Shown: piece after piece, positions 14,257 to 24,177 of the stretch | Layout of the letters: each line of letters starts with the position of its first letter | Position numbering within the stretch: position 1 is the first letter of the stretch | From: a virus | Length of the DNA stretch: 64,000 nucleotides | IMG/VR virus record: IMGVR_UViG_3300028920_000037 | Location: 76,496 to 140,495 of that record | Direction: 5' to 3' (one strand) | Translations under genes and position numbers: made by a program | The notes under the pieces: generated by a model | The model's input: only the letters and a program-made list of their open reading frames with translations | Told to the model about the DNA's origin: nothing | Database searches by the model: none

Positions 14257-14746
14257 CATGAAGCACAAGTTCAGGTTTCCTGTCGGTGACTGGTCGGGTG
14301 ACGGTCATGGTAAGTGTGAATGGTTTCAAGTTCGAAGCAACCAACCTGTCGAGAAATGGCGTGAGGCGTACTTTGCATCATTGATCAAATTCAATGAACA
14401 CGACATCGCACCTGATAGTCACCACAATGGCAGGAAGGATAGAGGCTGGCCTCTGCACAAGATGCGTGAGCTCGTTGGTTTCAAATTTCCAAATACCGAT
14501 TATGACTGGCAGTATGACCAGCAAAGGGGAGAAAAGATCGAAGTCATACAAGATATTCCAAGGGTTGGATTTCCGGATCCGAAGGACGCCGTAGGGTACA
14601 CGCTCGCGTTCTGCCAGGCGTCTGATTCGTCGCTGAAGTTCGAGATCATTGAAAAAGAAACTGAGATGTTTCAGTTCTACGGTTTCGACGAGCAGGAAAG
14701 GCACATCGGTCACATCGGTTACGAAATCTTCATGGATGGTTGGTGA
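14249..14746 (+). CDS. Hypothetical protein
   Basis: 'GDWSGDGHG' start, 'IGY' end. Confidence 0.7.
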   Translation: MSSMKHKFRFPVGDWSGDGHGKCEWFQVRSNQPVEKWREAYFASLIKFNEHDIAPDSHHNGRKDRGWPLHKMRELVGFKFPNTDYDWQYDQQRGEKIEVIQDIPRVGFPDPKDAVGYTLAFCQASDSSLKFEIIEKETEMFQFYGFDEQERHIGHIGYEIFMDGW

Positions 14747-14815
14747 TGAATTCCGTGTCATATGCGTGTACAATCGTCAGTCCACAGGAGATATTGAAGA
14801 TCTGCGGAGGTACAC

Positions 14816-15037
14816 ATGAAAGCAACGGCTGAATTCACGATCATCGAGCTAGAGCCAGGTACGTATTTTTCAGGATACGTCGGTACGTTGCCTCTTACGA
14901 TTGAGTGGGCAAGCGTCGGTAACCCGCTGCTTGCGACAAGAGCACAACCAGGGTCGCTCGATGCTATTAAGGAAATGTTTCCGCATGCAAGGTACATGAG
15001 GGTCGAGGCAACCGCAGAGTGCGAGTACTATGAGTGA
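14816..15037 (+). CDS. Hypothetical protein
   Basis: SD ggagg; coupled to dnaE. Confidence 0.55.
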   Translation: MKATAEFTIIELEPGTYFSGYVGTLPLTIEWASVGNPLLATRAQPGSLDAIKEMFPHARYMRVEATAECEYYE

Positions 15038-17297
15038 GAAAACAATCAAGCGTGGTGCTCGAGTTGTCGATCCTGAATGCGTTTTACCGAAACGATTTGT
15101 TTCGCTTCATAACCATAGTGGATTTTCCACATATGATGGTTTGGGACCTCCGGAAGCTCACTTTGATTTTTGTATGGAAAATGGCTTAGATGCTCATGCC
15201 ATTACGGATCATGGCCATATGAATGGGTATGCAGCATCTCAATTGTACTATGAGAAGCTTAAGGATCAAGGGAGAGATTTTAAGTTCATACCTGGATGTG
15301 AATTTTATGTCCATCCTGACCTCGATGACTGGGCTCGCTACAGAGCACAGGAAGAGCAGAACAAGGAAGAGCGCAAGAAGGCTGAGCGTGCTGCGAGGAA
15401 ACGTGGTGATGCTCCTGATAACGATGTTGACAATGCAAATGCATTGACAGTTGAGAACGAAGAGGCGTCTAAGACCAATAAGTACCGTGACCCATTGAAG
15501 CGCCGCCATCACCTTGTGGTGCTGCCTAAGAACACAGCAGGCCTCAAGAAAATCTTTTCACTGGTCTCCTATGGCTACTTGGATGGGTTTTATCGGTTCC
15601 CTAGGATTGACATCAAGAGGATAAAGGCTGTCGCAGATGATGACATCATCCTCTCGTCGGCATGCATCGGTGGGCCCCTAGCATACGAGATCTTCGGTGT
15701 ATTTGCAGACGCACAGTGGGATGAGATGGGCCCACACCTGCTCAACGACTCATCGAACTACGAAAAGGTGATGCGTGCCCTGGGCAACGCACACGACATG
15801 TACGCTGACTCTGTGGGTGTTCACAACATGTTCCTCGAGCTGCAGTTCAACAAGATGCCACAGCAGGACCTAGTAAACCTAGCGCTGCTCAGATACGCAG
15901 TCGCAAACGGCATACAGGATCAGCTCATCGTCACATGCGACGCCCACTATCCAGGACCAGACCTCTGGCGTCAGAGGATCATGTACAAGAAGCTTGGGTA
16001 CCTGAACTACACAGAGATCGATCCGTCGGCGATCCCTAAGTCGAAGGACGAGCTCGAGTGTGAACTCTATCCCAAAAATGCCCAGCAGCTCTGGGAGGAG
16101 TATGTGGGTTGTAAGGCTAGGTCGTCCGAGTACGAGGCGATCGAGGGCATCGATGAGATCGTCTGTGCCGCCGTAGAGCGTACGTACGACATCGCTCATA
16201 CTGTCATAGACGAGCTTCCTCCAGACAGAGAGGCAAAGTTTCCTCACATCAGTGCAGAGGGTGATAAGCCATTCAACTACCTCGTTCAGATGTGCAAGAA
16301 GGGCTTGAAGAAGCGTGGACACGCCCACAAGCTCGAATATGTTGATCGCCTAAAGGAAGAGCTCGGGGTCATGAAGGAGCTCGGAGTCTCGAGGTACTTC
16401 AACACCCTTGCTGTCGTCATGCAGCTTGCACGTACGAAGGTGCTTACGGGACCGTGCAGAGGATCTGGTGGTGGTTCGCTCGTGAACTACTGCCTGTACA
16501 TCACGGATGTCGATCCGATCAAGTACGACCTGTACTTCTCGAGGTTCATGTCGGTGTACCGAAAGGGTATGCCTGACGTTGACATCGACATCGATGATCG
16601 CGATACTGTCCTTGACCTGTTGCGCAGCGAGTTTGGCTACACAAACGTCGTTCCGATCTCAAACTATAACCTCTTGAAGCTCAAGAGCCTGACAAAGGAT
16701 GTGTGCAAGTTCTTTGGCGTGCCGTTCGAAGAGGTGAATGCCGCGATGCGTACCGTCGAGGACGACGTCAGGAAGTCGACCCTCAAGGAAGGCGACGACA
16801 AAAACCTGTTTCAGCTGACGTTTGACGAGGCGATGGAACATTCGCCGAGTTATCGCGAGTTCATCGAAAAGCTTGCCGAAGACTTCCCAGAGGCCGTGGA
16901 GTCAATCCAGGCGCTCTATAAAGAACAACGTTCGCTCGGACGCCATGCGGGTGGAGTCCTTGTTGTTGACGATCTGCGAGACAAGATGCCTCTCATTACC
17001 TCGGGTGGCGAACCACAGTCGCCGTGGGTCGAAGGCATGGCCGTAAAACATTTAGAAAAAATTGGTAATTTCATCAAATACGATTTATTGGGTCTACTTA
17101 CTCTTCGTTTGATTAGGCGAACAATTGAATTAGTGCTTGAGAAACAGGTTCGAATTGATATTGACGGTCAAACGTTGTTTCTTGCGCCCGAGGAAAAGGT
17201 CGAACTTACAGCAGGCATGTTCAAAAAAGCCAAAGATATCATAGAAGGTGATGAAATTGACGACGATTGGCTCAGAACTTACACAGAAGGTGCTTGA
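15030..17297 (+). CDS. dnaE: DNA polymerase III alpha, fragment 1 (PHP + palm/thumb)
   Basis: SLHNHS..S..DG, ITDHG, GCEFY, CRGSGGGSLV, MPDVDIDID, RHAGG, KYDLLGL; ends with about 49 non-DnaE residues. Confidence 0.95.
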   Translation: MSEKTIKRGARVVDPECVLPKRFVSLHNHSGFSTYDGLGPPEAHFDFCMENGLDAHAITDHGHMNGYAASQLYYEKLKDQGRDFKFIPGCEFYVHPDLDDWARYRAQEEQNKEERKKAERAARKRGDAPDNDVDNANALTVENEEASKTNKYRDPLKRRHHLVVLPKNTAGLKKIFSLVSYGYLDGFYRFPRIDIKRIKAVADDDIILSSACIGGPLAYEIFGVFADAQWDEMGPHLLNDSSNYEKVMRALGNAHDMYADSVGVHNMFLELQFNKMPQQDLVNLALLRYAVANGIQDQLIVTCDAHYPGPDLWRQRIMYKKLGYLNYTEIDPSAIPKSKDELECELYPKNAQQLWEEYVGCKARSSEYEAIEGIDEIVCAAVERTYDIAHTVIDELPPDREAKFPHISAEGDKPFNYLVQMCKKGLKKRGHAHKLEYVDRLKEELGVMKELGVSRYFNTLAVVMQLARTKVLTGPCRGSGGGSLVNYCLYITDVDPIKYDLYFSRFMSVYRKGMPDVDIDIDDRDTVLDLLRSEFGYTNVVPISNYNLLKLKSLTKDVCKFFGVPFEEVNAAMRTVEDDVRKSTLKEGDDKNLFQLTFDEAMEHSPSYREFIEKLAEDFPEAVESIQALYKEQRSLGRHAGGVLVVDDLRDKMPLITSGGEPQSPWVEGMAVKHLEKIGNFIKYDLLGLLTLRLIRRTIELVLEKQVRIDIDGQTLFLAPEEKVELTAGMFKKAKDIIEGDEIDDDWLRTYTEGA

Positions 17298-19212
17298 CGC
17301 CTCTACACGGCACACATCTGCAAACGCGATCGCCCGCGAGCTTGGAACGTCTGCATATAAGGTGCGAAGGGTCCTGAGCGATAATAACGTAACGCTTAAG
17401 CAGCACATCGATCCAAACGCGATTCCAGAACACGAACATGAGCATGTTGTTGAACTACTTCGTGGTGGTATGTCGCGTGTTGACGTTGCAAAGAGGTTCA
17501 ATTCGACCATCAATGCCGTCAAAAAGGTACAAGATACCACGGGGTTTCGCAAACGTGCCGTAAGTCAGCCCAAGCGTTCCAATCACCTCGACGGCAAAGA
17601 ACGCCAGATTATTGTGATGTATGAGTCTGGTTGTTCCGTCAATGAGATCGTCACCGCGCTTACAACGACAAAGACGTTTTTGAGACACAAGTTTCAAGAG
17701 CTTGGCATTATGCCATCGGAACGTCGAAAAAGAAAGGCCTTGACGAAGGCGGAGATGCTGGAATGTATCTCCCTTCGTTTGACCACCAAGGAGTCAATCA
17801 AAAGGTTGAAGACTACTCCAGCGGTGTTTCGCAAGTTCAGAAAGAAGTACGAGTTGTCATTTAGATACGATCTTGCGCCTAAGGGCGAGGACTTAGATCG
17901 TCTTATTGCGTTGTTCAAACTTGGTAAAACTGCGCATGAAATTGCTGTTGAGATTTCATCGACTCCATCCTTGGTTACACGAGCCGCACGTCAGCAAGGA
18001 TTGATTTTTCGTGATCGTGTCAAGCAGAGGAAGATCATTCCAGAACATAGGATCAAAGATTTTAAACGCTTGTTCGAACGTGGGGATACAAAGCAACAGC
18101 TCGCAACCACGTTTAAAACGACGACATATGTTGTCAATGCGACTGTTGCCCACATTGGACTGTCATTTGATGCTCGTGATGTACAGATTGCGCGTAACAA
18201 CGCAGTTGAGCGCATAAACACGTTCGAACATTTAAACGTCATTGATGCGTCAGCATACAGGACGATGTACGGCCTCGACATACACGTTGAGTGTCTCAAA
18301 TGTGGCCATAAATGGTGGGACTGCTACAATACGCTTCGAAATGGATTCTGTAGAGGGTGTTCTGTTAGGAGCAAACCGGAACTGGAAATATCACAGTTCA
18401 TCGATTCGATCGAAGGTATCTCTGTCGTTCGAAACACTCGAACGATCATTTCACCGCTCGAACTCGATGTCTATGTACCTGAACTTAAGCTTGCTGTTGA
18501 GTTCAACGGGATATACTGGCATTCTGAAAAGGCAGGTACACCAAATAACTACCACGATCAAAAGATGCGTCGATGTCTAGAAAAAGGCATCATGCTTCTG
18601 CAATTTTTTGAAGATGAATGGTGGCACAAGCGTAACATTGTTGAAAGCATGATTATGCATCGTTTGGGGCGCTCAACGCGACGCGTGTTTGCAAGAAAGA
18701 CCAGTGTAGTTGAAGTTCATAGCAAACAAAGGCAGGAGTTTTTTGCTCGAAATCACATAGATGGAGACGTCCCAGCAACAAAGGCGTGGGGGCTTGAATT
18801 AGATGGTGAACTCGTATCTGTGATCAGCGTGCGGCAGCCAAAACACAAGAAATACAATAACGCGATTGAAATCGCACGTTTTGCGTCAGTGTTGGGAACC
18901 GTCGTACCCGGTGCGCTCGGCAGGTTGATGGTGCGTGTTTGTGAATTTTCTAATGACATGAACATTTCACAGATTGTTACATATGTCGATCTACGCCACG
19001 GTACAGGTAGGGGATACGAAGGCGTTGGATTTAGGCTCGATCATCTGACACCACCCAGATTTTGGTGGACAGACTTCAAACAACGCTATGATAGGTTCAA
19101 GTTCAAGGCAGACAAGGAGAATAATCTGACGCAGGAACAGGTCGCTAAGACCGCTGGAGTATGGCGAATTTTTGGTTGTTCGAATGCTTTGTATATCATG
19201 GATGTGCGCTAG
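17248..19212 (+). CDS. Free-standing Hef-like homing endonuclease with multiple N-terminal HTH repeats
   Basis: HTH repeats (AIARELG, DVAKRFN, EIAVEI), CLKCGH..CRGC, ELDVYVPELKLAVEFNGIYWH, C-terminal 'VFARK..NHIDG..EIARF..YVDLR..GY..GF' domain. Confidence 0.8.
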   Translation: MMKLTTIGSELTQKVLDASTRHTSANAIARELGTSAYKVRRVLSDNNVTLKQHIDPNAIPEHEHEHVVELLRGGMSRVDVAKRFNSTINAVKKVQDTTGFRKRAVSQPKRSNHLDGKERQIIVMYESGCSVNEIVTALTTTKTFLRHKFQELGIMPSERRKRKALTKAEMLECISLRLTTKESIKRLKTTPAVFRKFRKKYELSFRYDLAPKGEDLDRLIALFKLGKTAHEIAVEISSTPSLVTRAARQQGLIFRDRVKQRKIIPEHRIKDFKRLFERGDTKQQLATTFKTTTYVVNATVAHIGLSFDARDVQIARNNAVERINTFEHLNVIDASAYRTMYGLDIHVECLKCGHKWWDCYNTLRNGFCRGCSVRSKPELEISQFIDSIEGISVVRNTRTIISPLELDVYVPELKLAVEFNGIYWHSEKAGTPNNYHDQKMRRCLEKGIMLLQFFEDEWWHKRNIVESMIMHRLGRSTRRVFARKTSVVEVHSKQRQEFFARNHIDGDVPATKAWGLELDGELVSVISVRQPKHKKYNNAIEIARFASVLGTVVPGALGRLMVRVCEFSNDMNISQIVTYVDLRHGTGRGYEGVGFRLDHLTPPRFWWTDFKQRYDRFKFKADKENNLTQEQVAKTAGVWRIFGCSNALYIMDVR

Positions 19213-19252
19213 TTAAAATAACACTGTGTGATATACCCCCAATCAGGAACGT

Positions 19253-19912
19253 TTGATGATCATACCGAGTGGAAAGAAGCACGTTGTCTGGGCACGTATA
19301 GCAAAGACGGGTTCTATGTCAACAGAAAGAACGCTCACTGCATTGGGTGTGTTTATGCCACTGCGAAACGTGCTTCGTCGCCGAGAGGCGTACAAACCAA
19401 ACAAGCACATCCTTGTCGTTGATGACCTTGGAAAGCTAGCTGACGTCGGCGTGAACGTTGACGATTGCTTCATCTTTACGATCGTTCGATCGCCTTACTC
19501 ACGTGCGATGTCAGCGTGGTGTGGACACACCTTCTTCAAGGAAAAGAACAGGGACAACTTTGCCGACTGCATCAGGAACCCTCCCCAGCGTCCAGACAAG
19601 GGCTACAGAGAGCTTGGGAACAAGAAGGAAAAGGCTATCGAGGGCGCATGGAGACATTTCACAAAAACGATGTCGCAGTCGACGTCAATAGACGGTGCCT
19701 TACGCGTTGACAGGATCATCAAGCTCGAGGACTACAAGAACGGGCTGACTGCGGTGCTCGAAGAGCTAGGATTCAAGAAGATCAAGTTCTTCAAGGAGAA
19801 CAAGAGTCGCTTTCGCAAGAAGCGTGACCTGAAGCCGGAAGAGATCAGGCTCATCAATGCAAACTATTCTGAAGACTTCGACAATTTCAAATACGAAAAG
19901 AAAGAGGGCTGA
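19253..19912 (+). CDS. Sulfotransferase family 2-like protein
   Basis: RIAKTGSMS (5'-PAPS-binding-like), FTIVRSPYSRAMSAW, terminal YSEDF..FKY. Confidence 0.78.
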   Translation: MMIIPSGKKHVVWARIAKTGSMSTERTLTALGVFMPLRNVLRRREAYKPNKHILVVDDLGKLADVGVNVDDCFIFTIVRSPYSRAMSAWCGHTFFKEKNRDNFADCIRNPPQRPDKGYRELGNKKEKAIEGAWRHFTKTMSQSTSIDGALRVDRIIKLEDYKNGLTAVLEELGFKKIKFFKENKSRFRKKRDLKPEEIRLINANYSEDFDNFKYEKKEG

Positions 19913-20167
19913 CTGCATTGTACCCGGTGACATCGTCGGCGATGAAGATGTCACCGTTGGTCCTCGCTTGTTCCTTGTGCTTTCAGTCGTGCCACGTATG
20001 TGGATGATCGATTTTACCGTGTTGAACCCTTTGGGTGGAACGCAGATATGCTGTTCAACGCCTTACAAAGGACACAAAGTCCTTTAGGGACTTACCCAAC
20101 ATTCCAGTTGCATACAACGCAACGCCTCAGCTGCTCAGTGGAACGTACATTACTGAAGATTAACACA

Positions 20168-20196
20168 GTGTAGATCGTGCCGTCGTATTGTAGGAT
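20168..20196 (+). promoter_or_regulatory. Sigma70-like promoter for dnaE fragment 2, leaderless
   Basis: GTGTAG-17 nt-TAGGAT, then 6 nt to ATG 20203. Confidence 0.6.
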
Positions 20197-20202
20197 AAAC
20201 AC

Positions 20203-21129
20203 ATGGCTCTAGTAAAAGCTGTCAGGACGAGTACGCCCGACTTTCCTGAGATCCAGACGTTCTACAACGAACACCTTCATCCAGATGTGATCGACTTTGA
20301 AGACCAAGACGTCTACAAGTATGTTTTTCACGGCGGACGTTGGGCTGGCATCTTTCAGGCAACACAGAGGCCGACACAGAACTTCTTCGTCCAGTGCAAG
20401 CCGACGACCGTAACAGACCTTGCAGCGATCACATCAATCTGGCGTCCGGGTCCACTCGCCGGCAAGATGCACGAGCTGTACGTCGATGCAAAGTTCAACA
20501 AACCGTACGATTGGGGACATCCACTCCTGAACGAGACACTGGCAGATACGTACGGTCTCTTGATCTTTCAGGAGCAGATCATGCTCCTTGCAAACAAGGT
20601 TGCTGGGTATGACATGGCCCAATGTGACCAGGTCCGCCGCGCAATCCTAAAGCGCTCTCTCGCGACAGGTGAAGCAGCAAAAAAGGAGGCAGCTGAGCTC
20701 GAGGAGAGCTTTACGGACGGCTGCGTGAAGAACGGTGTGCCCCTCACCGTTGCAAAGAAGCTCTATCAAAACATCCTTGCTTGGGGTGGGTACGGTTTCA
20801 ATAAAAGTCTGTGTAGAGAGGATATGGTGATAGTTAATAACTATGAAACCAAACAACTCGATCAAGTTATTCCTGGCGACCAAGTCCTTACCCGAGACGA
20901 AGAGAGCGGACAAAACGTTTATACAGAGGTGCAAGAAGTCCATGACCATGGTACGCTTGAGCTCGTGGAGGTTGAACTAGACACAGGAGAAACGATCAGG
21001 TGTACGTTGGATCACAAGTTCAGGACGAAGGAGACGGGAGAGATGCTTCCTCTATGGTTGATAGCGAAGCAGCAGTACAGCATCGTTGTAGACGATGCGG
21101 CAAAGAATTCAAATCAGATATCTGGCTGA
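20203..21129 (+). CDS. dnaE: DNA polymerase III alpha, fragment 2 (fingers) fused to split-intein N half
   Basis: GIFQ, RPGP, TYGLLIFQEQIM, VRRAI, YGFNK followed by intein. Confidence 0.93.
   Translation: MALVKAVRTSTPDFPEIQTFYNEHLHPDVIDFEDQDVYKYVFHGGRWAGIFQATQRPTQNFFVQCKPTTVTDLAAITSIWRPGPLAGKMHELYVDAKFNKPYDWGHPLLNETLADTYGLLIFQEQIMLLANKVAGYDMAQCDQVRRAILKRSLATGEAAKKEAAELEESFTDGCVKNGVPLTVAKKLYQNILAWGGYGFNKSLCREDMVIVNNYETKQLDQVIPGDQVLTRDEESGQNVYTEVQEVHDHGTLELVEVELDTGETIRCTLDHKFRTKETGEMLPLWLIAKQQYSIVVDDAAKNSNQISG
20806..21126 (+). mobile_element. Split intein N-fragment (IntN, 107 aa, Ser1)
   Basis: FNK|SLCREDMV (block A register), PGDQV, block B IRCTLDHKF (TxxH). Confidence 0.88.
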
Positions 21130-22112
21130 ACAAACACGAAGCCAGGTGCAATGAACCCATCTACCTTCCTGAGGAAGAAGGAAAGAAGTGGGTTGCTTGC
21201 AAAATCTGTGGTCACAAAGGCGTTCGCATTGGTAAACACCTGAAATCTGCGCACGGGCTGACGACCAAAGAATACACAGCACAATTCCCAGATGCTTTGA
21301 CGTCAGCGCTCGATGAAATTCAGAAGATGAGTGAGGCGTGCAACTGGATTGATCGTGCCAAAGAAAACGGCGACGATCTCAGCGAGTATCGTCAACGAAT
21401 GGGTGCTGCAGTTTCTCAGTCGATCATGTCAAATCCAGAAGAGCGAGCTCGTCGCTCGGTCCAGATGGCCGTGAACAACCAAACACCTGAAGCTCGTGAA
21501 AAGTCACGTGTTACCGCAAAGAAGACATCTCAGCGTCAAGATATACTTGATCAACGTACACATAATCTTGCAAATTGGCGTGAAAAACATCCTGATGATT
21601 TTGCAAAGTGTACAAACGCGATGTTACAAACTAGTGTTTCATCACCAGAGCTTGAGTTGTTTTACATTATTGATGTTTTATCCTCAATGAAAGTTATTTG
21701 TTGTGATGTGAAACGTCAACAAAGGATTCAAGATGTTAGTTTTACAGCAAGTAAAACACATATGTTTTGTGTTGACATTACCTGCATTTTTCAAAACGTA
21801 TGTGTTCATATTGAGATTGATGGTATCCATCATTTTCAACAAATTGCAAGTTTTGATCTCAACAAACGACAACGACGTGATCAAGAATTTGAAAACTGGA
21901 TCAATGCTCGAAATGATGTGATGCTTGTTCGATTGTCATACGATACGTGGGAAACACGTCGCTGGCAAGAAAACAAAGAAAAGATGAGTAGGACATTTTT
22001 CTCCCAACCTGCTCTCGAGGCCCTCTTCAGCCTTCTCAAGAATCCTAAACCTGGCGTCCACTGTATCGGCCAGGCATACGGTGAAAGGAACCTGCTGTGT
22101 GGAAGCCAATAA
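21054..22112 (+). CDS. Free-standing homing endonuclease (C2H2 fingers + Vsr/DUF559-like PD-(D/E)xK domain)
   Basis: CRRC..HEARC, CKIC..HLKSAH, SSPE..., VDI..IEIDGIHH..RDQE; AT-rich; lies between the intein halves. Confidence 0.8.
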   Translation: MVDSEAAVQHRCRRCGKEFKSDIWLNKHEARCNEPIYLPEEEGKKWVACKICGHKGVRIGKHLKSAHGLTTKEYTAQFPDALTSALDEIQKMSEACNWIDRAKENGDDLSEYRQRMGAAVSQSIMSNPEERARRSVQMAVNNQTPEAREKSRVTAKKTSQRQDILDQRTHNLANWREKHPDDFAKCTNAMLQTSVSSPELELFYIIDVLSSMKVICCDVKRQQRIQDVSFTASKTHMFCVDITCIFQNVCVHIEIDGIHHFQQIASFDLNKRQRRDQEFENWINARNDVMLVRLSYDTWETRRWQENKEKMSRTFFSQPALEALFSLLKNPKPGVHCIGQAYGERNLLCGSQ

Positions 22113-22284
22113 GCTCAATTCCTAGGAAAAAGTGTTTCGTTTTAACGCGACGGATGCACATCATTACAGTAATTCCAGATGCTGACGGTTCATGGTGCAT
22201 TCCAACATCGTCGGGGTGGGAAGAGGTTTCAATTGAAAACGATCTTGCTTGGTCACCGTTTCCTGATATGGAAGAATTTGCATC

Positions 22285-23613
22285 ATGCCTGAGCCTGTTG
22301 ACAAAGAACAGTTGAAGACATTCCTTGGCGCCCTCGGCGAGGCGATCGCAAAGGGTGATTTTCCTGATTCTGACATTGTGAATGACACGTCGTTGTCAGA
22401 GGAAGAATTTGAACGTATTCTAAAAGAACGTGTTGCGGCGAGGTACAACAGACCCCGCAAGAAGCTAACGATTGAAGAGATCGAACTTGCGGTTTTAAAA
22501 GGTCCACAGCCTACAGGTAGGATCGTTTCGATCAGAGAGGTCGGCGAGCATCCTACCCGAGACCTATCTGTGGCGCATCCAGATCATCAGTTCTACCTTG
22601 CAAACGGCGTGTTAACAAGCAACAGCCATGCCACGGGATACGCGATGATCTCGTACCAGTGTGCCTACCTCATGACGTATTACGAGGCGGAATGGCTGTG
22701 TTCATACCTCGAATCGATGAGCGGGAACGAGAACTCTCGCGCAAAGGCATTCGCGGAGGTCAGGTCACTCGGATACAACATCGTTCCGATCGACATCAAT
22801 TCGGCACGTGTAGGGTGGACAAGCATTCTCGGAAAGAAGTTCATGCCCTCGTTCACAACGTGCAAGGGAGTAGGTGCCGCTGCTGTCCAGGAGATCGTCG
22901 AGGCTCGCCCGTACGAGAAGTTCGAAGATGTTCTCTGGGACGACGAAGGAAATTGGCGTCACAGCAAGTTCAACAAGAGGGCGTTCGAGGCGTTGGTAAA
23001 TATCGGAGCGTTTGCGAGCCTCGACTGTGTAGGTGAAGGTAAGCTCTTTGAATCGTACGCCCAGATGCACTGGGTTCTGTTTGGTTCTCACACGGCGAAG
23101 GTCAAGAAGAAGCGCAAAGGCGCTGAGGTCGAAGTGGAGAAGAAGTTCGACCATTTTGCCTGGATCAAACGTAATCCAACAATGGATCCTCACGAAGGTC
23201 GTAGGAACTTCTACGAGCTCATCAGGATGTCAAGCGGACAGATCGAACCTTGGACGCGGAGGGAGTGGGCTCTGAAGAACATCGAGCACTTCGGCTCACT
23301 CGACGTTCGAAGCCTCGTGGAGCCAAGCGTCCTTGAAGTCTTTGAAGAGAAGGGTCTACGTTCAATCGATGAGTACGAGGACGAGGACGTCTACTGGTTT
23401 TGCATTGTCAAGGTCGAAAAGAAGACAACACGGAACGGTAAGAAGTACCTCCTGTTGTACGCCCAAGGACCTGCAGGGAAGGTCTTCAGGATATACGCCT
23501 GGGGGTGGAACGGAAAGCGTATAGTTGACCTCTACGCGGTCTGTTTTGCCGAACTTAAGAAGTCGGACTTTGGGTTCGCAACGAGCATGTACAAGCTGCG
23601 TGAGCTTGAGTAG
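22285..23613 (+). CDS. dnaE: Split-intein C half fused to DNA polymerase III alpha fragment 3 (HhH + OB)
   Basis: ...VLTSN|SHATGYAMISYQCAYL, DINS, KGVG, ALVNIGAF, OB-fold KTTRNGKKY. Confidence 0.93.
   Translation: MPEPVDKEQLKTFLGALGEAIAKGDFPDSDIVNDTSLSEEEFERILKERVAARYNRPRKKLTIEEIELAVLKGPQPTGRIVSIREVGEHPTRDLSVAHPDHQFYLANGVLTSNSHATGYAMISYQCAYLMTYYEAEWLCSYLESMSGNENSRAKAFAEVRSLGYNIVPIDINSARVGWTSILGKKFMPSFTTCKGVGAAAVQEIVEARPYEKFEDVLWDDEGNWRHSKFNKRAFEALVNIGAFASLDCVGEGKLFESYAQMHWVLFGSHTAKVKKKRKGAEVEVEKKFDHFAWIKRNPTMDPHEGRRNFYELIRMSSGQIEPWTRREWALKNIEHFGSLDVRSLVEPSVLEVFEEKGLRSIDEYEDEDVYWFCIVKVEKKTTRNGKKYLLLYAQGPAGKVFRIYAWGWNGKRIVDLYAVCFAELKKSDFGFATSMYKLRELE
22516..22623 (+). mobile_element. Split intein C-fragment (IntC)
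   Basis: GRIVSIREVGEHPTRDLSVAHPDHQFYLANGVLTSN; blocks F/G, terminal Asn, +1 Ser. Confidence 0.92.
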
Positions 23614-23632
23614 GACGATACTTAACTCTGCC

Positions 23633-23878
23633 ATGGCAGACAAGAAGATCGTTAGGCTGACAGAAGGTCAGCTTCGCAACATCATCCGCAAGGTCCTCAA
23701 TGAGGACATCGTACAGTCGAACGACATCATTGACACGATCGATACGATCGAGGATACTGATACGCTCGTTGCAATCAACGACAAGATCAAAGCGAGGTAT
23801 GGGTACCTCATGCGCCTCTCACGTTCGCAGCGCCAAACGTCTCGCAAGCCTCCCCCTCCGCCTCAAAGGCGACGTTGA
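23633..23878 (+). CDS. Small protein with leader 'LTEGQLRNIIRKVLNE'
   Basis: TACTTA at 23619-23624. Confidence 0.72.
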   Translation: MADKKIVRLTEGQLRNIIRKVLNEDIVQSNDIIDTIDTIEDTDTLVAINDKIKARYGYLMRLSRSQRQTSRKPPPPPQRRR

Positions 23879-24177
23879 GCAGGCGGACACGTCAGCACCT
23901 GCTTGACTTCCTGGCGTTTGGACTACCAGGAGTTTTACTCCTGGGTCTGGATGGATACCTTTGGGTTGCGACGAACGCCGATGTCAACGGTCTTGTTGGG
24001 ACGCTCATCTGTTCTTTGGCGTCCATTGGCATCTACTGCCTTGTTCTGCGTCACAGTTTGCAGTGGCGCATATTTAGGCATCATGCAGACAACGATCGGA
24101 AAGATCAGAGGGCTCGTCAGAAAGACGCTGATACTGACAGAGATGAGAGGTCCAACAGGAAACCTCCGCCGCGTTAG
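23875..24177 (+). CDS. Possible small 2-TM membrane protein
   Basis: Two hydrophobic segments and a charged tail; overlaps the next gene by 95 nt. Confidence 0.35.
   Translation: MSRRTRQHLLDFLAFGLPGVLLLGLDGYLWVATNADVNGLVGTLICSLASIGIYCLVLRHSLQWRIFRHHADNDRKDQRARQKDADTDRDERSNRKPPPR

What the first reader, a model, noticed from the sequence alone, without database searches (positions are those of the whole stretch)
17148..20232. DnaE break flanked by a catalytically dead 'half-Hint' module: a possible non-splicing protein clasp
Seen: DnaE similarity stops at ...KYDLLGLLTLRLIRRTIELVLEKQ and resumes 3 kb later at TPDFPEIQTFY...GIFQ. Fragment 1 ends with an added tail, VRIDIDGQTLFLAPEEKVELTAGMFKKAKDIIEGDEI. 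Fragment 2 starts with an added MALVKAVRT. The tail aligns by eye with the second half of an IntN (compare the real one in this window: VEVELDTGETIRCTLDHKFRT; general pattern 'G..k.a.dl..GD.i'). However, TxxH has become APEE and there is no block A nucleophile. The head resembles only the first IntC strand (cf. GRIVSIRE), with no block F/G or terminal Asn. Established: Hint domains have two pseudo-symmetric halves, and natural split inteins break just after the GD.I strand. Inference: an eroded split intein was reduced to one half-domain that joins the polymerase pieces by beta-strand complementation without splicing. That would be a distinct way to tolerate a homing-endonuclease insertion.
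Basis: partly seen in the sequence, partly recalled or inferred. Interest (0 to 1): 0.9.

Follow-up and report, generated by a model that had tools for sequence, protein, structure and literature searches.

The report
Splicing-dead half-intein clasp in split DnaE
A large phage's replicative DNA polymerase gene is cut in two by a mobile endonuclease cassette, and the cassette's flanks encode the middle part of a split intein that has lost every splicing residue and most likely only zips the two protein halves together; the same cassette recurs in many related polymerases and in at least three other phage genes.

Summary
DnaE homology stops at residue 706 of the ORF at 15030-17297. It resumes at residue 11 of the ORF at 20203-21129. 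The 49-aa tail and 10-aa head are absent from the closest unsplit homologue.

The homology reading is strongly supported. A profile of 43 such tails hits solved inteins (NrdJ-1, E 1.9e-6) over block B up to the natural split point. In 1.8 billion proteins it hits inteins, usually twice per intein. The block B Thr/His pair occurs in 69/70 of 74 real split-intein N-fragments but in 2/0 of 43 tails. Block A, blocks F/G, the terminal Asn and a +1 nucleophile are missing.

The element is not a local erosion. It is a mobile cassette (tail, stop, endonuclease, start, head):
- It is present in 46 of 120 DnaE relatives and scattered over their tree.
- An occupied/empty allele pair shows a co-conversion gradient.
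- The endonuclease is swapped or lost in some loci.
- Two proteins carry the module re-fused in frame.
- Equivalent tail/head pairs split an RNR gene and two other genes.

The clasp function (acidic tail strand against basic head strand) is inferred, not shown. Structure predictions did not settle it.

This scan has reached the same reading on other genomes. Crona et al. 2011 speculated about it for phage Aeh1 NrdA.

The parts
15030..17147 (+). DnaE fragment 1, polymerase part (PHP, palm/thumb, first finger helix; residues 1-706)
   Evidence: Pfam PHP 3.4e-25 and DNA_pol3_alpha 1.8e-49; 50-67% identity to about 1200-aa unsplit DnaE homologues
17148..17297 (+). Tail: 49 codons plus stop. Homologous to the C-terminal part of a split-intein N-fragment (strand before block B, dead block B, DG turn, GD-x-I strand), followed by a short D-rich/W extension
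   Evidence: Absent from P0002. Tail-family profile hits NrdJ-1 intein at E 1.9e-6 and a DnaE intein at 0.002. Real-intein-only profile hits this tail at E 8.5e-4, second best of 856 ORFs. Thr/His of block B replaced
17248..19212 (+). Free-standing homing endonuclease gene (multi-HTH N-terminus, nuclease C-terminus); its start overlaps the tail codons
   Evidence: phrog_3339 homing endonuclease 5.8e-75 and HTH_7 4e-9. A similar multi-HTH ORF (609 aa, my reading; only a faint HTH_28 hit on record, not compared directly) sits at the same place in L001
19253..19912 (+). Passenger gene inside the break: sulfotransferase-family protein
   Evidence: Pfam Sulfotransfer_2 2e-12; phrog_3347 1.6e-7. Not present in the breaks of L001-L004
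20192..20195 (+). AGGA Shine-Dalgarno-like motif 7 nt before the start of fragment 2
   Evidence: Read directly from the sequence
20203..20232 (+). Head: 10 codons. Basic strand with alternating hydrophobic residues, patterned like the first strand of a split-intein C-fragment, plus a short linker
   Evidence: P0002 alignment begins at residue 11. 58 partner fragments share the M-[AK]-K-[VI]-x-S-[VI]-K pattern with mean net charge +2.1
20233..20805 (+). DnaE fragment 2, finger-domain part up to GYGFNK
   Evidence: Pfam DNA_pol3_finger 2.7e-33; BLASTP to P0002
20806..22623 (+). Second, genuine split intein of the same gene: IntN 20806-21126, endonuclease-like ORF 21000-22112, IntC 22285-22623. 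Serves as an internal positive control
   Evidence: Hint/Intein_splicing hits on fragment 2 residues 207-276. Real-intein profile E 2e-8 with CTLDH intact. P0002 reads through GYGFNK-AHATGYA
22624..23613 (+). DnaE fragment 3 (HhH and C-terminal part)
   Evidence: Pfam HHH_6 3.1e-10

Best explanation
The break is caused by a mobile cassette made of tail codons, a stop codon, a free-standing homing endonuclease gene (here plus a passenger sulfotransferase), a ribosome-binding site with start codon, and head codons.

The tail and head are the endonuclease-proximal parts of a former split intein. The tail is the strand preceding block B, a catalytically dead block B, and the small globular part up to the natural split point. 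The head is the first strand of the C-fragment.

Everything needed for splicing is gone: block A with its nucleophile, Thr/His of block B, blocks F/G, the terminal Asn and a +1 nucleophile. The two DnaE pieces are therefore made as separate proteins and stay separate.

What was kept are the two antiparallel strands that in real split inteins form the electrostatic 'charge zipper' of the capture step, acidic in the tail and basic in the head. Most likely the module works as a non-covalent clasp. The head strand pairs with the tail, closing a small beta domain that bulges from a surface loop of the finger domain and holds the two halves of that domain in register.

Shown: homology, loss of catalytic residues, mobility, and recurrence in other genes.
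Inferred: that pairing occurs and is needed. Also inferred is the origin, by ectopic movement of an endonuclease gene together with its nearest intein flanks.
For: (1) Homology.
- The profile of 43 tails (A1) against PDB sequences gives NrdJ-1 intein E 1.9e-6 over chain 75-109, a DnaE intein at 0.002 and several Npu DnaE inteins at 0.03-0.06.
- Against 1.84e9 representatives it gives 1700 hits at E<=1e-3. The hits I inspected carry inteins, and most inteins are matched twice about 50 aa apart, on both pseudo-symmetric halves.

(2) Fold.
- AF2 of the in-frame form P0043:690-775 gives a beta core with pLDDT 76-91.
- Of 48,161 PDB representatives only 30 reach Z>=2, and 29 of them are inteins, Hedgehog or BIL domains. 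Examples are 5bkh_A (Z 4.3, rmsd 1.5 A over 44 residues) and 2jnq_A (rmsd 1.3 A over 42).
- Foldseek's top rows are inteins, but only at E about 0.3.

(3) Catalytic loss with structural retention.
- Thr at profile position 21: 69/74 real N-fragments versus 2/43 tails. His at position 24: 70/74 versus 0/43.
- E9, E11, D14-G15, V26, G31, A36, L39 and the D43-D44-I45 run are shared.
- Heads end in variable 3-8 aa linkers with no conserved Asn or nucleophile.

(4) Charge complementarity. The first tail strand has mean net charge -1.9 and the first 9 head residues +2.1. This matches the beta3/beta6 charge zipper of gp41-1 and Npu DnaE (10.1101/546465; PMC11766414).

(5) Mobility.
- The module is present in 46 of 120 DnaE rows. 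At least 24 gains or losses are forced by well-supported branches, against a shuffled mean of 36.7.
- L004 (occupied) and L005 (empty) are mostly 99-100% identical at the DNA level over the preceding kilobases, including the first 1.4 kb of dnaE.
- Identity then falls to 93, 86, 73 and 71% in the last 800 nt before the insertion, and is 85% after it.

(6) Life cycle.
- The same site holds endonuclease ORFs of at least three different kinds.
- P0043 and P0107 carry the module in frame, and P0107 keeps the former start Met-Ala of the head.

(7) Generality. Dead tails with matching M-[AK]-[IK]-V-type heads split three other genes:
- an RNR large subunit (L006, 10-nt spacer, no endonuclease);
- a P-loop ATPase near a T4-type portal gene (L007, 26-nt spacer);
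- a phrog_7293 protein (L008, HNH endonuclease between the halves).
Against: - No experiment or confident model shows that head and tail touch. In the AF2 model of P0043 the head region has pLDDT about 50-60. In P0107 everything after the GD-x-V strand is modelled as one long helix at pLDDT 61-78. The head columns had almost no alignment depth, so this is weak evidence.
- The two DnaE pieces are halves of one finger domain and might associate without any help. In the Aeh1 NrdA precedent the tails were not needed for heterodimer formation, only for higher assembly and activity (PMC3045599).
- Part of the sequence conservation could reflect spread by homing rather than selection on function.
- The window's own tail is one of the more divergent members (E 8.5e-4 with the real-intein profile).
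Confidence: 0.68

Rival explanations
1. Neutral relic. The tail and head are leftovers of a dead split intein with no role. The two polymerase pieces reassemble through the native finger-domain interface, and the relic persists only because precise deletion is rare.
For: The halves belong to one domain. The Aeh1 tails were dispensable for heterodimer formation (PMC3045599). AF2 does not place the head with confidence.
Against: Tails average only 26% column identity yet keep the structural positions and lose only the catalytic ones. Tail and head keep opposite charges. The pair is retained after endonuclease loss in L006 and L007 and after re-fusion in P0043 and P0107. The same pair is kept in four unrelated host genes.
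Confidence: 0.22
2. Cryptic protein splicing. The roughly 60-aa module is a minimal or unconventional intein that still ligates the exteins by unknown chemistry.
For: It is derived from an intein, sits in frame and behaves genetically like one.
Against: There is no conserved nucleophile at either junction. Thr is present in 2 of 43 tails and His in 0 of 43. There is no block A, F or G and no terminal Asn. Linkers between head and extein vary in length. About 60 residues is well under half of the smallest intein chains matched here (101-150 residues).
Confidence: 0.03
3. Removal at the RNA or ribosome level. The 3 kb is a group I/II intron or a bypassed gap, and the tail and head are not part of the mature protein.
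For: Endonuclease genes often sit in introns, and T4 gene 60 shows that ribosomes can hop.
Against: No Rfam family matches at E<=1 in 14500-24000. Tail and head are conserved as protein, with stop, RBS and ATG in every locus. Endonuclease-free loci have only 10-26 nt between stop and start, in different frames.
Confidence: 0.02
4. Ordinary insertion domain. The module is a lineage-specific loop domain of this DnaE family that an endonuclease gene happened to hit.
For: P0043 and P0107 carry it in frame within an unsplit stretch.
Against: It is absent from the closest relatives (P0002, P0003) and scattered across the tree. It arrives together with diverged flanks in an otherwise nearly identical genome. 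P0107 retains the head's Met-Ala, which marks a secondary fusion. The same module occurs in unrelated genes.
Confidence: 0.05

Closest known systems
'Fractured genes': split inteins flanking a free-standing homing endonuclease in phage-like metagenomic loci, including DnaE (Dassa et al. 2009, PMC2677866)
   Same: Adjacent gene halves with an endonuclease gene (GIY-YIG or Vsr-like) between them. The tail ends at the same point as those N-inteins. The sequence class is the same as NrdJ-1/gp41-1. The exposed long strands carry complementary charges.
   Different: Those inteins have all six Hint motifs and the five catalytic residues, and they splice. Here only the endonuclease-proximal parts remain (about 49 + 10 aa instead of 88-105 + about 36-40), none of the catalytic residues is conserved, and the product must stay in two chains.
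Aeromonas phage Aeh1 nrdA-a / mobE / nrdA-b with essential C- and N-terminal tails (Crona et al. 2011, PMC3045599)
   Same: An endonuclease insertion splits an essential gene. The unique tails are absent from unsplit homologues, oppositely charged and not processed. The authors proposed them as a third solution beside RNA and protein splicing and speculated that they are a degenerate intein. The RNR example found here (L006) is split in the loop after the active-site C-E-I-x-L-P-T motif. Aeh1 also appears to be split between the active-site Cys/Glu and the next conserved Cys (my reading of the paper's residue numbers).
   Different: Database searches with the Aeh1 tails found nothing, so their origin is unknown. 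Here the intein origin is statistically supported. The Aeh1 tails act on dimerisation of heterodimers. No function has been tested here.
T4 MobA element splitting topoisomerase II (gp39/gp60), with CTE/NTE tails and a bypass cassette (bioRxiv 10.1101/2022.08.31.505936)
   Same: The life cycle matches: endonuclease replaced by other families, endonuclease lost while the tails are kept, and secondary fusion.
   Different: The MobA tails are not reported there as Hint-derived, and that element also carries the 50-nt translational bypass. Nothing comparable is seen here.
Charge zipper / 'capture and collapse' of natural split inteins (gp41-1 structure, bioRxiv 10.1101/546465; review PMC11766414)
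   Same: The module keeps the counterparts of beta3 (tail) and beta6 (head), the antiparallel strands whose opposite charges start fragment association. The polarity is as in Npu DnaE: the N-side strand is acidic and the C-side strand basic.
   Different: In inteins this capture is followed by collapse of the remaining parts into a full Hint fold and by splicing. Here the remaining parts do not exist.

Membership tests
Intein (protein-splicing Hint domain) | Sequence and fold homology to the Hint domain | tested here: met
   Met for part of the domain only. Profile against PDB gives NrdJ-1 intein at 1.9e-6. 1700 hits in 1.84e9 proteins, the inspected ones inteins. 29 of the 30 structural matches with Z>=2 are Hint proteins.
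Intein (protein-splicing Hint domain) | Block A with an N-terminal Cys/Ser nucleophile (or the class 2/3 equivalents) | tested here: not met
   The tail starts directly at the strand before block B. The roughly 50 residues that precede it in real N-inteins are absent. Junction residues vary (G, V, I, K).
Intein (protein-splicing Hint domain) | Block B Thr-x-x-His | tested here: not met
   Thr in 2 of 43 and His in 0 of 43 tails, versus 69 and 70 of 74 real N-fragments. The window has A-P-E-E at this place.
Intein (protein-splicing Hint domain) | Blocks F/G with a terminal Asn, and Cys/Ser/Thr at +1 | tested here: not met
   Heads are 11-16 aa up to the conserved extein Phe. They have variable linkers and no conserved Asn or nucleophile. 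Real C-inteins of the same DnaE family carry ...HNF...VHN|C.
Intein (protein-splicing Hint domain) | In-frame insertion that is sporadic among homologues (mobile) | tested here: met
   Present in 46 of 120 rows with at least 24 changes on the tree. Occupied/empty pair with a co-conversion gradient.
Fractured-gene arrangement (Dassa 2009) | Gene halves adjacent on one strand with a free-standing homing endonuclease gene between them | tested here: met
   Window 15030-17297 / 17248-19212 / 20203-21129. The layout is the same in L001-L004.
Fractured-gene arrangement (Dassa 2009) | Complete split-intein halves with catalytic residues | tested here: not met
   See the intein rows above. The second break of the same gene (20806-22623) does meet this feature.
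Tail-assisted genes-in-pieces (Aeh1 NrdA; T4 gp39/gp60 CTE/NTE) | Extra C- and N-terminal peptides at the break that are absent from unsplit homologues and arrive with the endonuclease | tested here: met
Tail-assisted genes-in-pieces (Aeh1 NrdA; T4 gp39/gp60 CTE/NTE) | Oppositely charged tails | tested here: met
   Mean net charge -1.9 for the tail strand and +2.1 for the head.
Tail-assisted genes-in-pieces (Aeh1 NrdA; T4 gp39/gp60 CTE/NTE) | Tails remain on the mature proteins and are required for activity | not testable with these tools
   Needs mass spectrometry and deletion mutants.
Group I / group II intron carrying an endonuclease ORF | Match to an intron covariance model and exon junctions that restore the ORF | tested here: not met
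   No Rfam match at E<=1 in 14500-24000. Tail and head are conserved as protein. Endonuclease-free loci have 10-26 nt spacers.

The most novel reading that the evidence does not exclude
Free-standing homing endonucleases of phages carry a portable, splicing-independent protein zipper made from the two endonuclease-proximal stubs of a split intein. This would let them colonise essential genes at sites where no intein or intron exists, and it would be a third general 'safe-insertion' device beside introns and inteins. It would be traceable by sequence and present in polymerases, RNR and other genes, with the Aeh1 and T4 tails possibly being further-eroded members. A more remote extension is that two such half modules pair between polymerase molecules to rebuild a whole Hint-like fold.
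Probability: 0.4. Interest if true: 0.85.

Novelty: new variant of a known kind. Interest (0 to 1): 0.72.

Why it matters
Introns and inteins are the textbook ways in which selfish endonuclease genes avoid killing the gene they invade. A third way, tails that re-assemble the split protein, rests on one biochemically studied case (Aeh1 NrdA) whose tails had no detectable relatives.

Here the tails can be traced by sequence to a split intein. That gives the third way an origin, a searchable signature and hundreds of natural variants. It shows which part of a split intein may suffice for association without chemistry. This is of direct interest for engineering small orthogonal, non-covalent split-protein tags. 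It also shows how an intein can decay without being excised.

It is also a caution for annotation. 'Truncated' polymerase, RNR and other phage genes with such tails are probably functional two-chain enzymes.

Tried and rejected
- Complex prediction of the tail (A1) with the head (A3, residues 1-30) gave no verdict: score 0.24 against a mark of 0.32, and the controls were not run. It counts neither for nor against binding.
- The search for related loci in viral contigs with fragment 1 found nothing.
- megablast of 15000-24000 against phages found nothing.
- tblastn of fragment 1 against phages found only relatives at about 26% identity.
- tblastn of a tail against phages found nothing.
- A per-tail Pfam scan gave only faint Hint/Vint hits at about 0.07. 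Single tails are too short, and the family profile was needed.
- Foldseek against PDB listed inteins first but at E about 0.3, which is not significant by itself.
- MAFFT could not align heads and tails to the in-frame forms together. It stacked the heads on the tails' last strand (A2) or the tails' last strand on the head (A5). The AF2 jobs therefore used tails-only alignments, which left the head without depth.
- Salmonella phage S16 uvsW, hit by the RNR tail query, turned out to be a genuine split intein with Cys1, T-x-x-H and HN|C. It is not a half module.
- A tree of the 44 shared columns of tails and real N-inteins groups most dead modules together (4 changes), but only 7 branches are well supported and the catalytic columns bias it. 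A single versus multiple origin cannot be told.
- A search of the window's own 140-kb record with the tail profile found only this tail.
- The paper by Shah et al. 2013 on capture and collapse is not held. It is cited only through PMC11766414 and 10.1101/546465.
Full report
**Anatomy**

On the + strand the window encodes one DnaE-type polymerase in three pieces.
- Piece 1 (15030-17297, 755 aa) has the PHP and DNA_pol3_alpha domains. After the KYDLLGL motif and one helix ending ...LEKQ (residue 706), it continues for 49 residues that no unsplit homologue has.
- A 654-aa homing endonuclease follows (17248-19212; phrog_3339 5.8e-75, N-terminal HTH repeats). Its start overlaps the tail codons.
- Next come a sulfotransferase-family gene (19253-19912) and a 290-nt spacer that ends in AGGA 7 nt before an ATG.
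- Piece 2 (20203-21129) matches the finger domain from profile position 12.
- Pieces 2 and 3 are joined by a genuine split intein (20806-22623) with an endonuclease-like ORF between its halves.

BLASTP against the closest unsplit relative, P0002 (1143 aa, 67% identical to piece 1), starts at residue 11 of piece 2. In P0002 three residues stand where the window has tail, 2.9 kb of DNA and head.

An identical piece-2 protein is on record with a 331-kb longest contig. The window's own record is a 140-kb virus fragment that CheckV estimates at 39% complete. This points to a jumbo phage.

**The tail and head are a family, not an accident**

Among the 120 best homologues of piece 1, 44 end within 100 residues of the KYDLLGL motif (41 picked up by the first motif pattern, the rest after relaxing it). 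They carry a tail of the same pattern: an acidic strand, a D-G turn, two short strands, a second D/N-G turn and a D-D-[IV] strand.

Two proteins, P0043 and P0107, carry the module in frame, followed directly by the polymerase sequence. P0107 even keeps the Met-Ala of the former head start.

A search with piece 2 returned about 90 partner fragments. They begin M-[AK]-K-[VI]-x-S-[VI]-K, continue with a 3-8 residue variable linker, and then show the conserved extein motif P-[TE]-F..[VI]K.WY. Real C-inteins that sit about 45 residues downstream in other members of the same DnaE family begin with the same kind of strand and then continue into ...HNF...VHN|C.

**Homology to inteins**

- A profile of 43 tails (A1, 52 positions) was searched against all PDB sequences.
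  - It finds the NrdJ-1 split intein at E 1.9e-6. The alignment runs from block B to the natural split point (chain 75-109).
  - It also finds a DnaE intein at 0.002, several Npu DnaE inteins at 0.03-0.06, a VWA-domain protein (8r2c) at 0.0025 and Sonic hedgehog at 0.17.
- Against 1.84 billion representatives it finds 1700 proteins at E<=1e-3.
  - The hits I inspected carry inteins.
  - Most inteins are matched twice about 50 residues apart: profile positions 19-47 on the block-A half and 3-47 on the block-B half. This is the known pseudo-two-fold symmetry of the Hint fold.
- In the control free of circularity, a profile of 69 real split-intein N-fragments ranks the window's genuine IntN first (2e-8) and this tail second (8.5e-4) among the 856 ORFs of the window.
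- AF2 of the in-frame module of P0043 gives a four- to five-strand core at pLDDT 76-91.
  - In an exhaustive structural comparison only 30 of 48,161 chains reach Z>=2, and 29 of them are inteins, Hedgehog or BIL domains.
  - The best superpositions are 1.3-1.5 A over 42-44 residues, but Z is at most 4.7 because the domain is so small.

**What is kept and what is lost**

I aligned 43 tails with 74 real split-intein N-fragments from the search.
- The block B Thr is present in 69 of 74 real fragments and 2 of 43 tails. The His is present in 70 of 74 and 0 of 43.
- The structural positions (two Glu of the first strand, D-G, V, G, A, L, D-D-I) have the same preferences in both sets.
- Both sets end within a few residues of the same column.
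- The roughly 50 residues that precede this region in a real N-intein (block A with the nucleophile) are absent.
- The head lacks blocks F and G, the terminal Asn and any conserved +1 nucleophile.

In the terms of the gp41-1 crystal structure (10.1101/546465), the tail corresponds to beta3, beta4 and the globular part of the second C2 unit. The head corresponds to beta6. 'Half-Hint' is thus a fair approximation but not exact.

Beta3 and beta6 are the antiparallel strands described there as a charge zipper. They are the strands that start fragment association in the capture-and-collapse model (PMC11766414). The first tail strand has mean net charge -1.9 and the first nine head residues +2.1.

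Because the two strands are antiparallel, the entry and exit points of the module lie side by side. That is what an insertion in a surface loop needs (my inference).

**It is a mobile cassette**

- On a tree of the polymerase part, with the module columns excluded, module presence needs 29 changes. At least 24 are forced by well-supported branches, close to the 36.7 of shuffled labels.
- The window's own four-member clade holds two occupied and two empty genes.
- L004 (occupied) and L005 (empty) come from nearly identical phages.
  - They are mostly 99-100% identical at the DNA level over the preceding kilobases, including the first 1.4 kb of dnaE.
  - Identity then falls to 93, 86, 73 and 71% over the last 800 nt before the insertion point, and is 85% beyond it.
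  - This is the pattern expected from homing with co-conversion of flanks from a diverged donor.
- The endonuclease is exchangeable.
  - The window has a multi-HTH endonuclease, and L001 has a 609-aa ORF that looks to be of the same multi-HTH type.
  - L002 and L003 have 383-387-aa proteins with NUMOD-type hits and what I read as a GIY-YIG-like N-terminal motif.
  - L004 has a 185-aa protein with a similar N-terminal motif but no family match.
- In these loci the stop, the endonuclease ORF and the next start are tightly packed or overlap.

**Other host genes**

Among the 148 best profile hits I looked for C-terminal matches that lack Thr/His and an upstream block A. I found three.
- An RNR large subunit (P0152, L006) is split in the loop after C-E-I-x-L-P-T. 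The partner gene starts 10 nt later with M-K-I-V-K-K and continues the RNR barrel at profile position 223, after 213 in the first half.
- A P-loop ATPase about 3.3 kb upstream of a T4-type portal gene, possibly a terminase (P0162, L007), has a partner starting 26 nt later with M-A-I-V-S-K-I-K.
- A phrog_7293 protein with a CxxxCxxC motif (P0146, L008) has an HNH endonuclease between the halves and a partner starting M-I-V-K-K-V.

A fourth protein (P0224) ends in a full-length but catalytically dead N-intein-like region.

**Mechanism and origin (inferred)**

The retained parts are exactly the intein codons that abut the endonuclease gene on either side. The most economical origin is therefore ectopic movement of an endonuclease gene together with its nearest flanks, including the stop codon, RBS and start codon. 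Two independent in-frame deletions are less likely. Only insertions whose flanks still let the host protein reassemble would survive in an essential gene.

The module would then act as a small two-chain beta domain bulging from the finger domain.

This function is not shown.
- The one complex prediction gave no verdict (listed under Tried and rejected only).
- Both AF2 models leave the head at low or middling confidence. One draws it as part of a long helix.
- The alternative that the module is a tolerated relic keeps about one chance in five.

**Comparison with what is known**

- The arrangement is that of the fractured genes of Dassa et al. 2009 (PMC2677866), but those inteins are complete and catalytic.
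- The functional precedent is Aeh1 NrdA. Its tails, brought by mobE, are essential, unprocessed and oppositely charged. Its authors found no database match and speculated about a degenerate intein (PMC3045599).
- The MobA element of T4-like phages shows the same life cycle of endonuclease replacement, endonuclease loss with tail retention, and re-fusion (10.1101/2022.08.31.505936).
- Full-text searches for degenerate or remnant inteins found no description of such a Hint-derived tail/head pair.
- Earlier follow-ups of this scan reached the same reading on other genomes, in DnaE of phages and phage-plasmids and in UvsW. I did not re-test those.

**Verdict**

This is a real, well-supported feature. 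It is a new variant of known kinds (fractured genes; tail-assisted genes in pieces), with a demonstrable intein origin and wide distribution. Its proposed clasp function awaits a simple biochemical test.

Noticed in passing
window 20806-22623: The second break of the same dnaE is a genuine split intein at GYGFNK|S-H-A. Compared with P0002, the intein starts with Ser (S-L-C-R-E-D) and the C-extein with Ser. Block B reads C-T-L-D-H and the C-terminus reads ...L-T-S-N, so the penultimate residue is Ser rather than His. The C-intein ORF has a 77-aa N-terminal extension.
   Followed up: partly
window 19253-19912: A sulfotransferase-family gene (Pfam 2e-12) sits as a passenger inside the dnaE break, followed by a 290-nt spacer. 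None of the four related breaks examined (L001-L004) carries it.
   Followed up: no
window 20413-20592 (fragment 2 residues 71-130): Sixty consecutive residues are 100% identical to P0002, although the two polymerases are only 58-67% identical overall. This suggests a recent recombination patch or very strong constraint.
   Followed up: no
L006:2335-4903: This RNR large subunit is in at least three pieces. The first ORF ends with what looks like a very short (about 15 aa) atypical N-intein starting with Cys. The next ORF starts with a long C-intein-like region, then contains a further Hint region that ends in VHN|C and looks like a cis intein, and ends in the dead half-module.
   Followed up: no
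P0224 (727 aa): This non-DnaE protein ends in a full-length N-intein-like region. Both pseudo-symmetric halves are present, but Cys1 is missing and block B reads L-T-S-N-Q. It may be an intermediate stage of intein decay.
   Followed up: no
L009 (Salmonella phage S16, NC_020416.1 104626-107352): uvsW of this cultured T4-like phage is split by a genuine split intein (Cys1, T-G-N-H, ...AHN|C), with a 291-aa unannotated ORF (gp114.1) between the halves. It is annotated only as two 'DNA helicase' genes.
   Followed up: partly
window 17268-17294; also the tails of P0004, P0008, P0097 and the linker of P0107: A subset of tails carries an extra D-[DE]-W-[LI]-x-x motif after the D-D-I strand, at the point where the endonuclease ORF begins to overlap. 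In P0107 this extension forms part of the linker of the re-fused gene. Other tails instead end in [VI]-x-P-[IL]-E-x-[RK].
   Followed up: no
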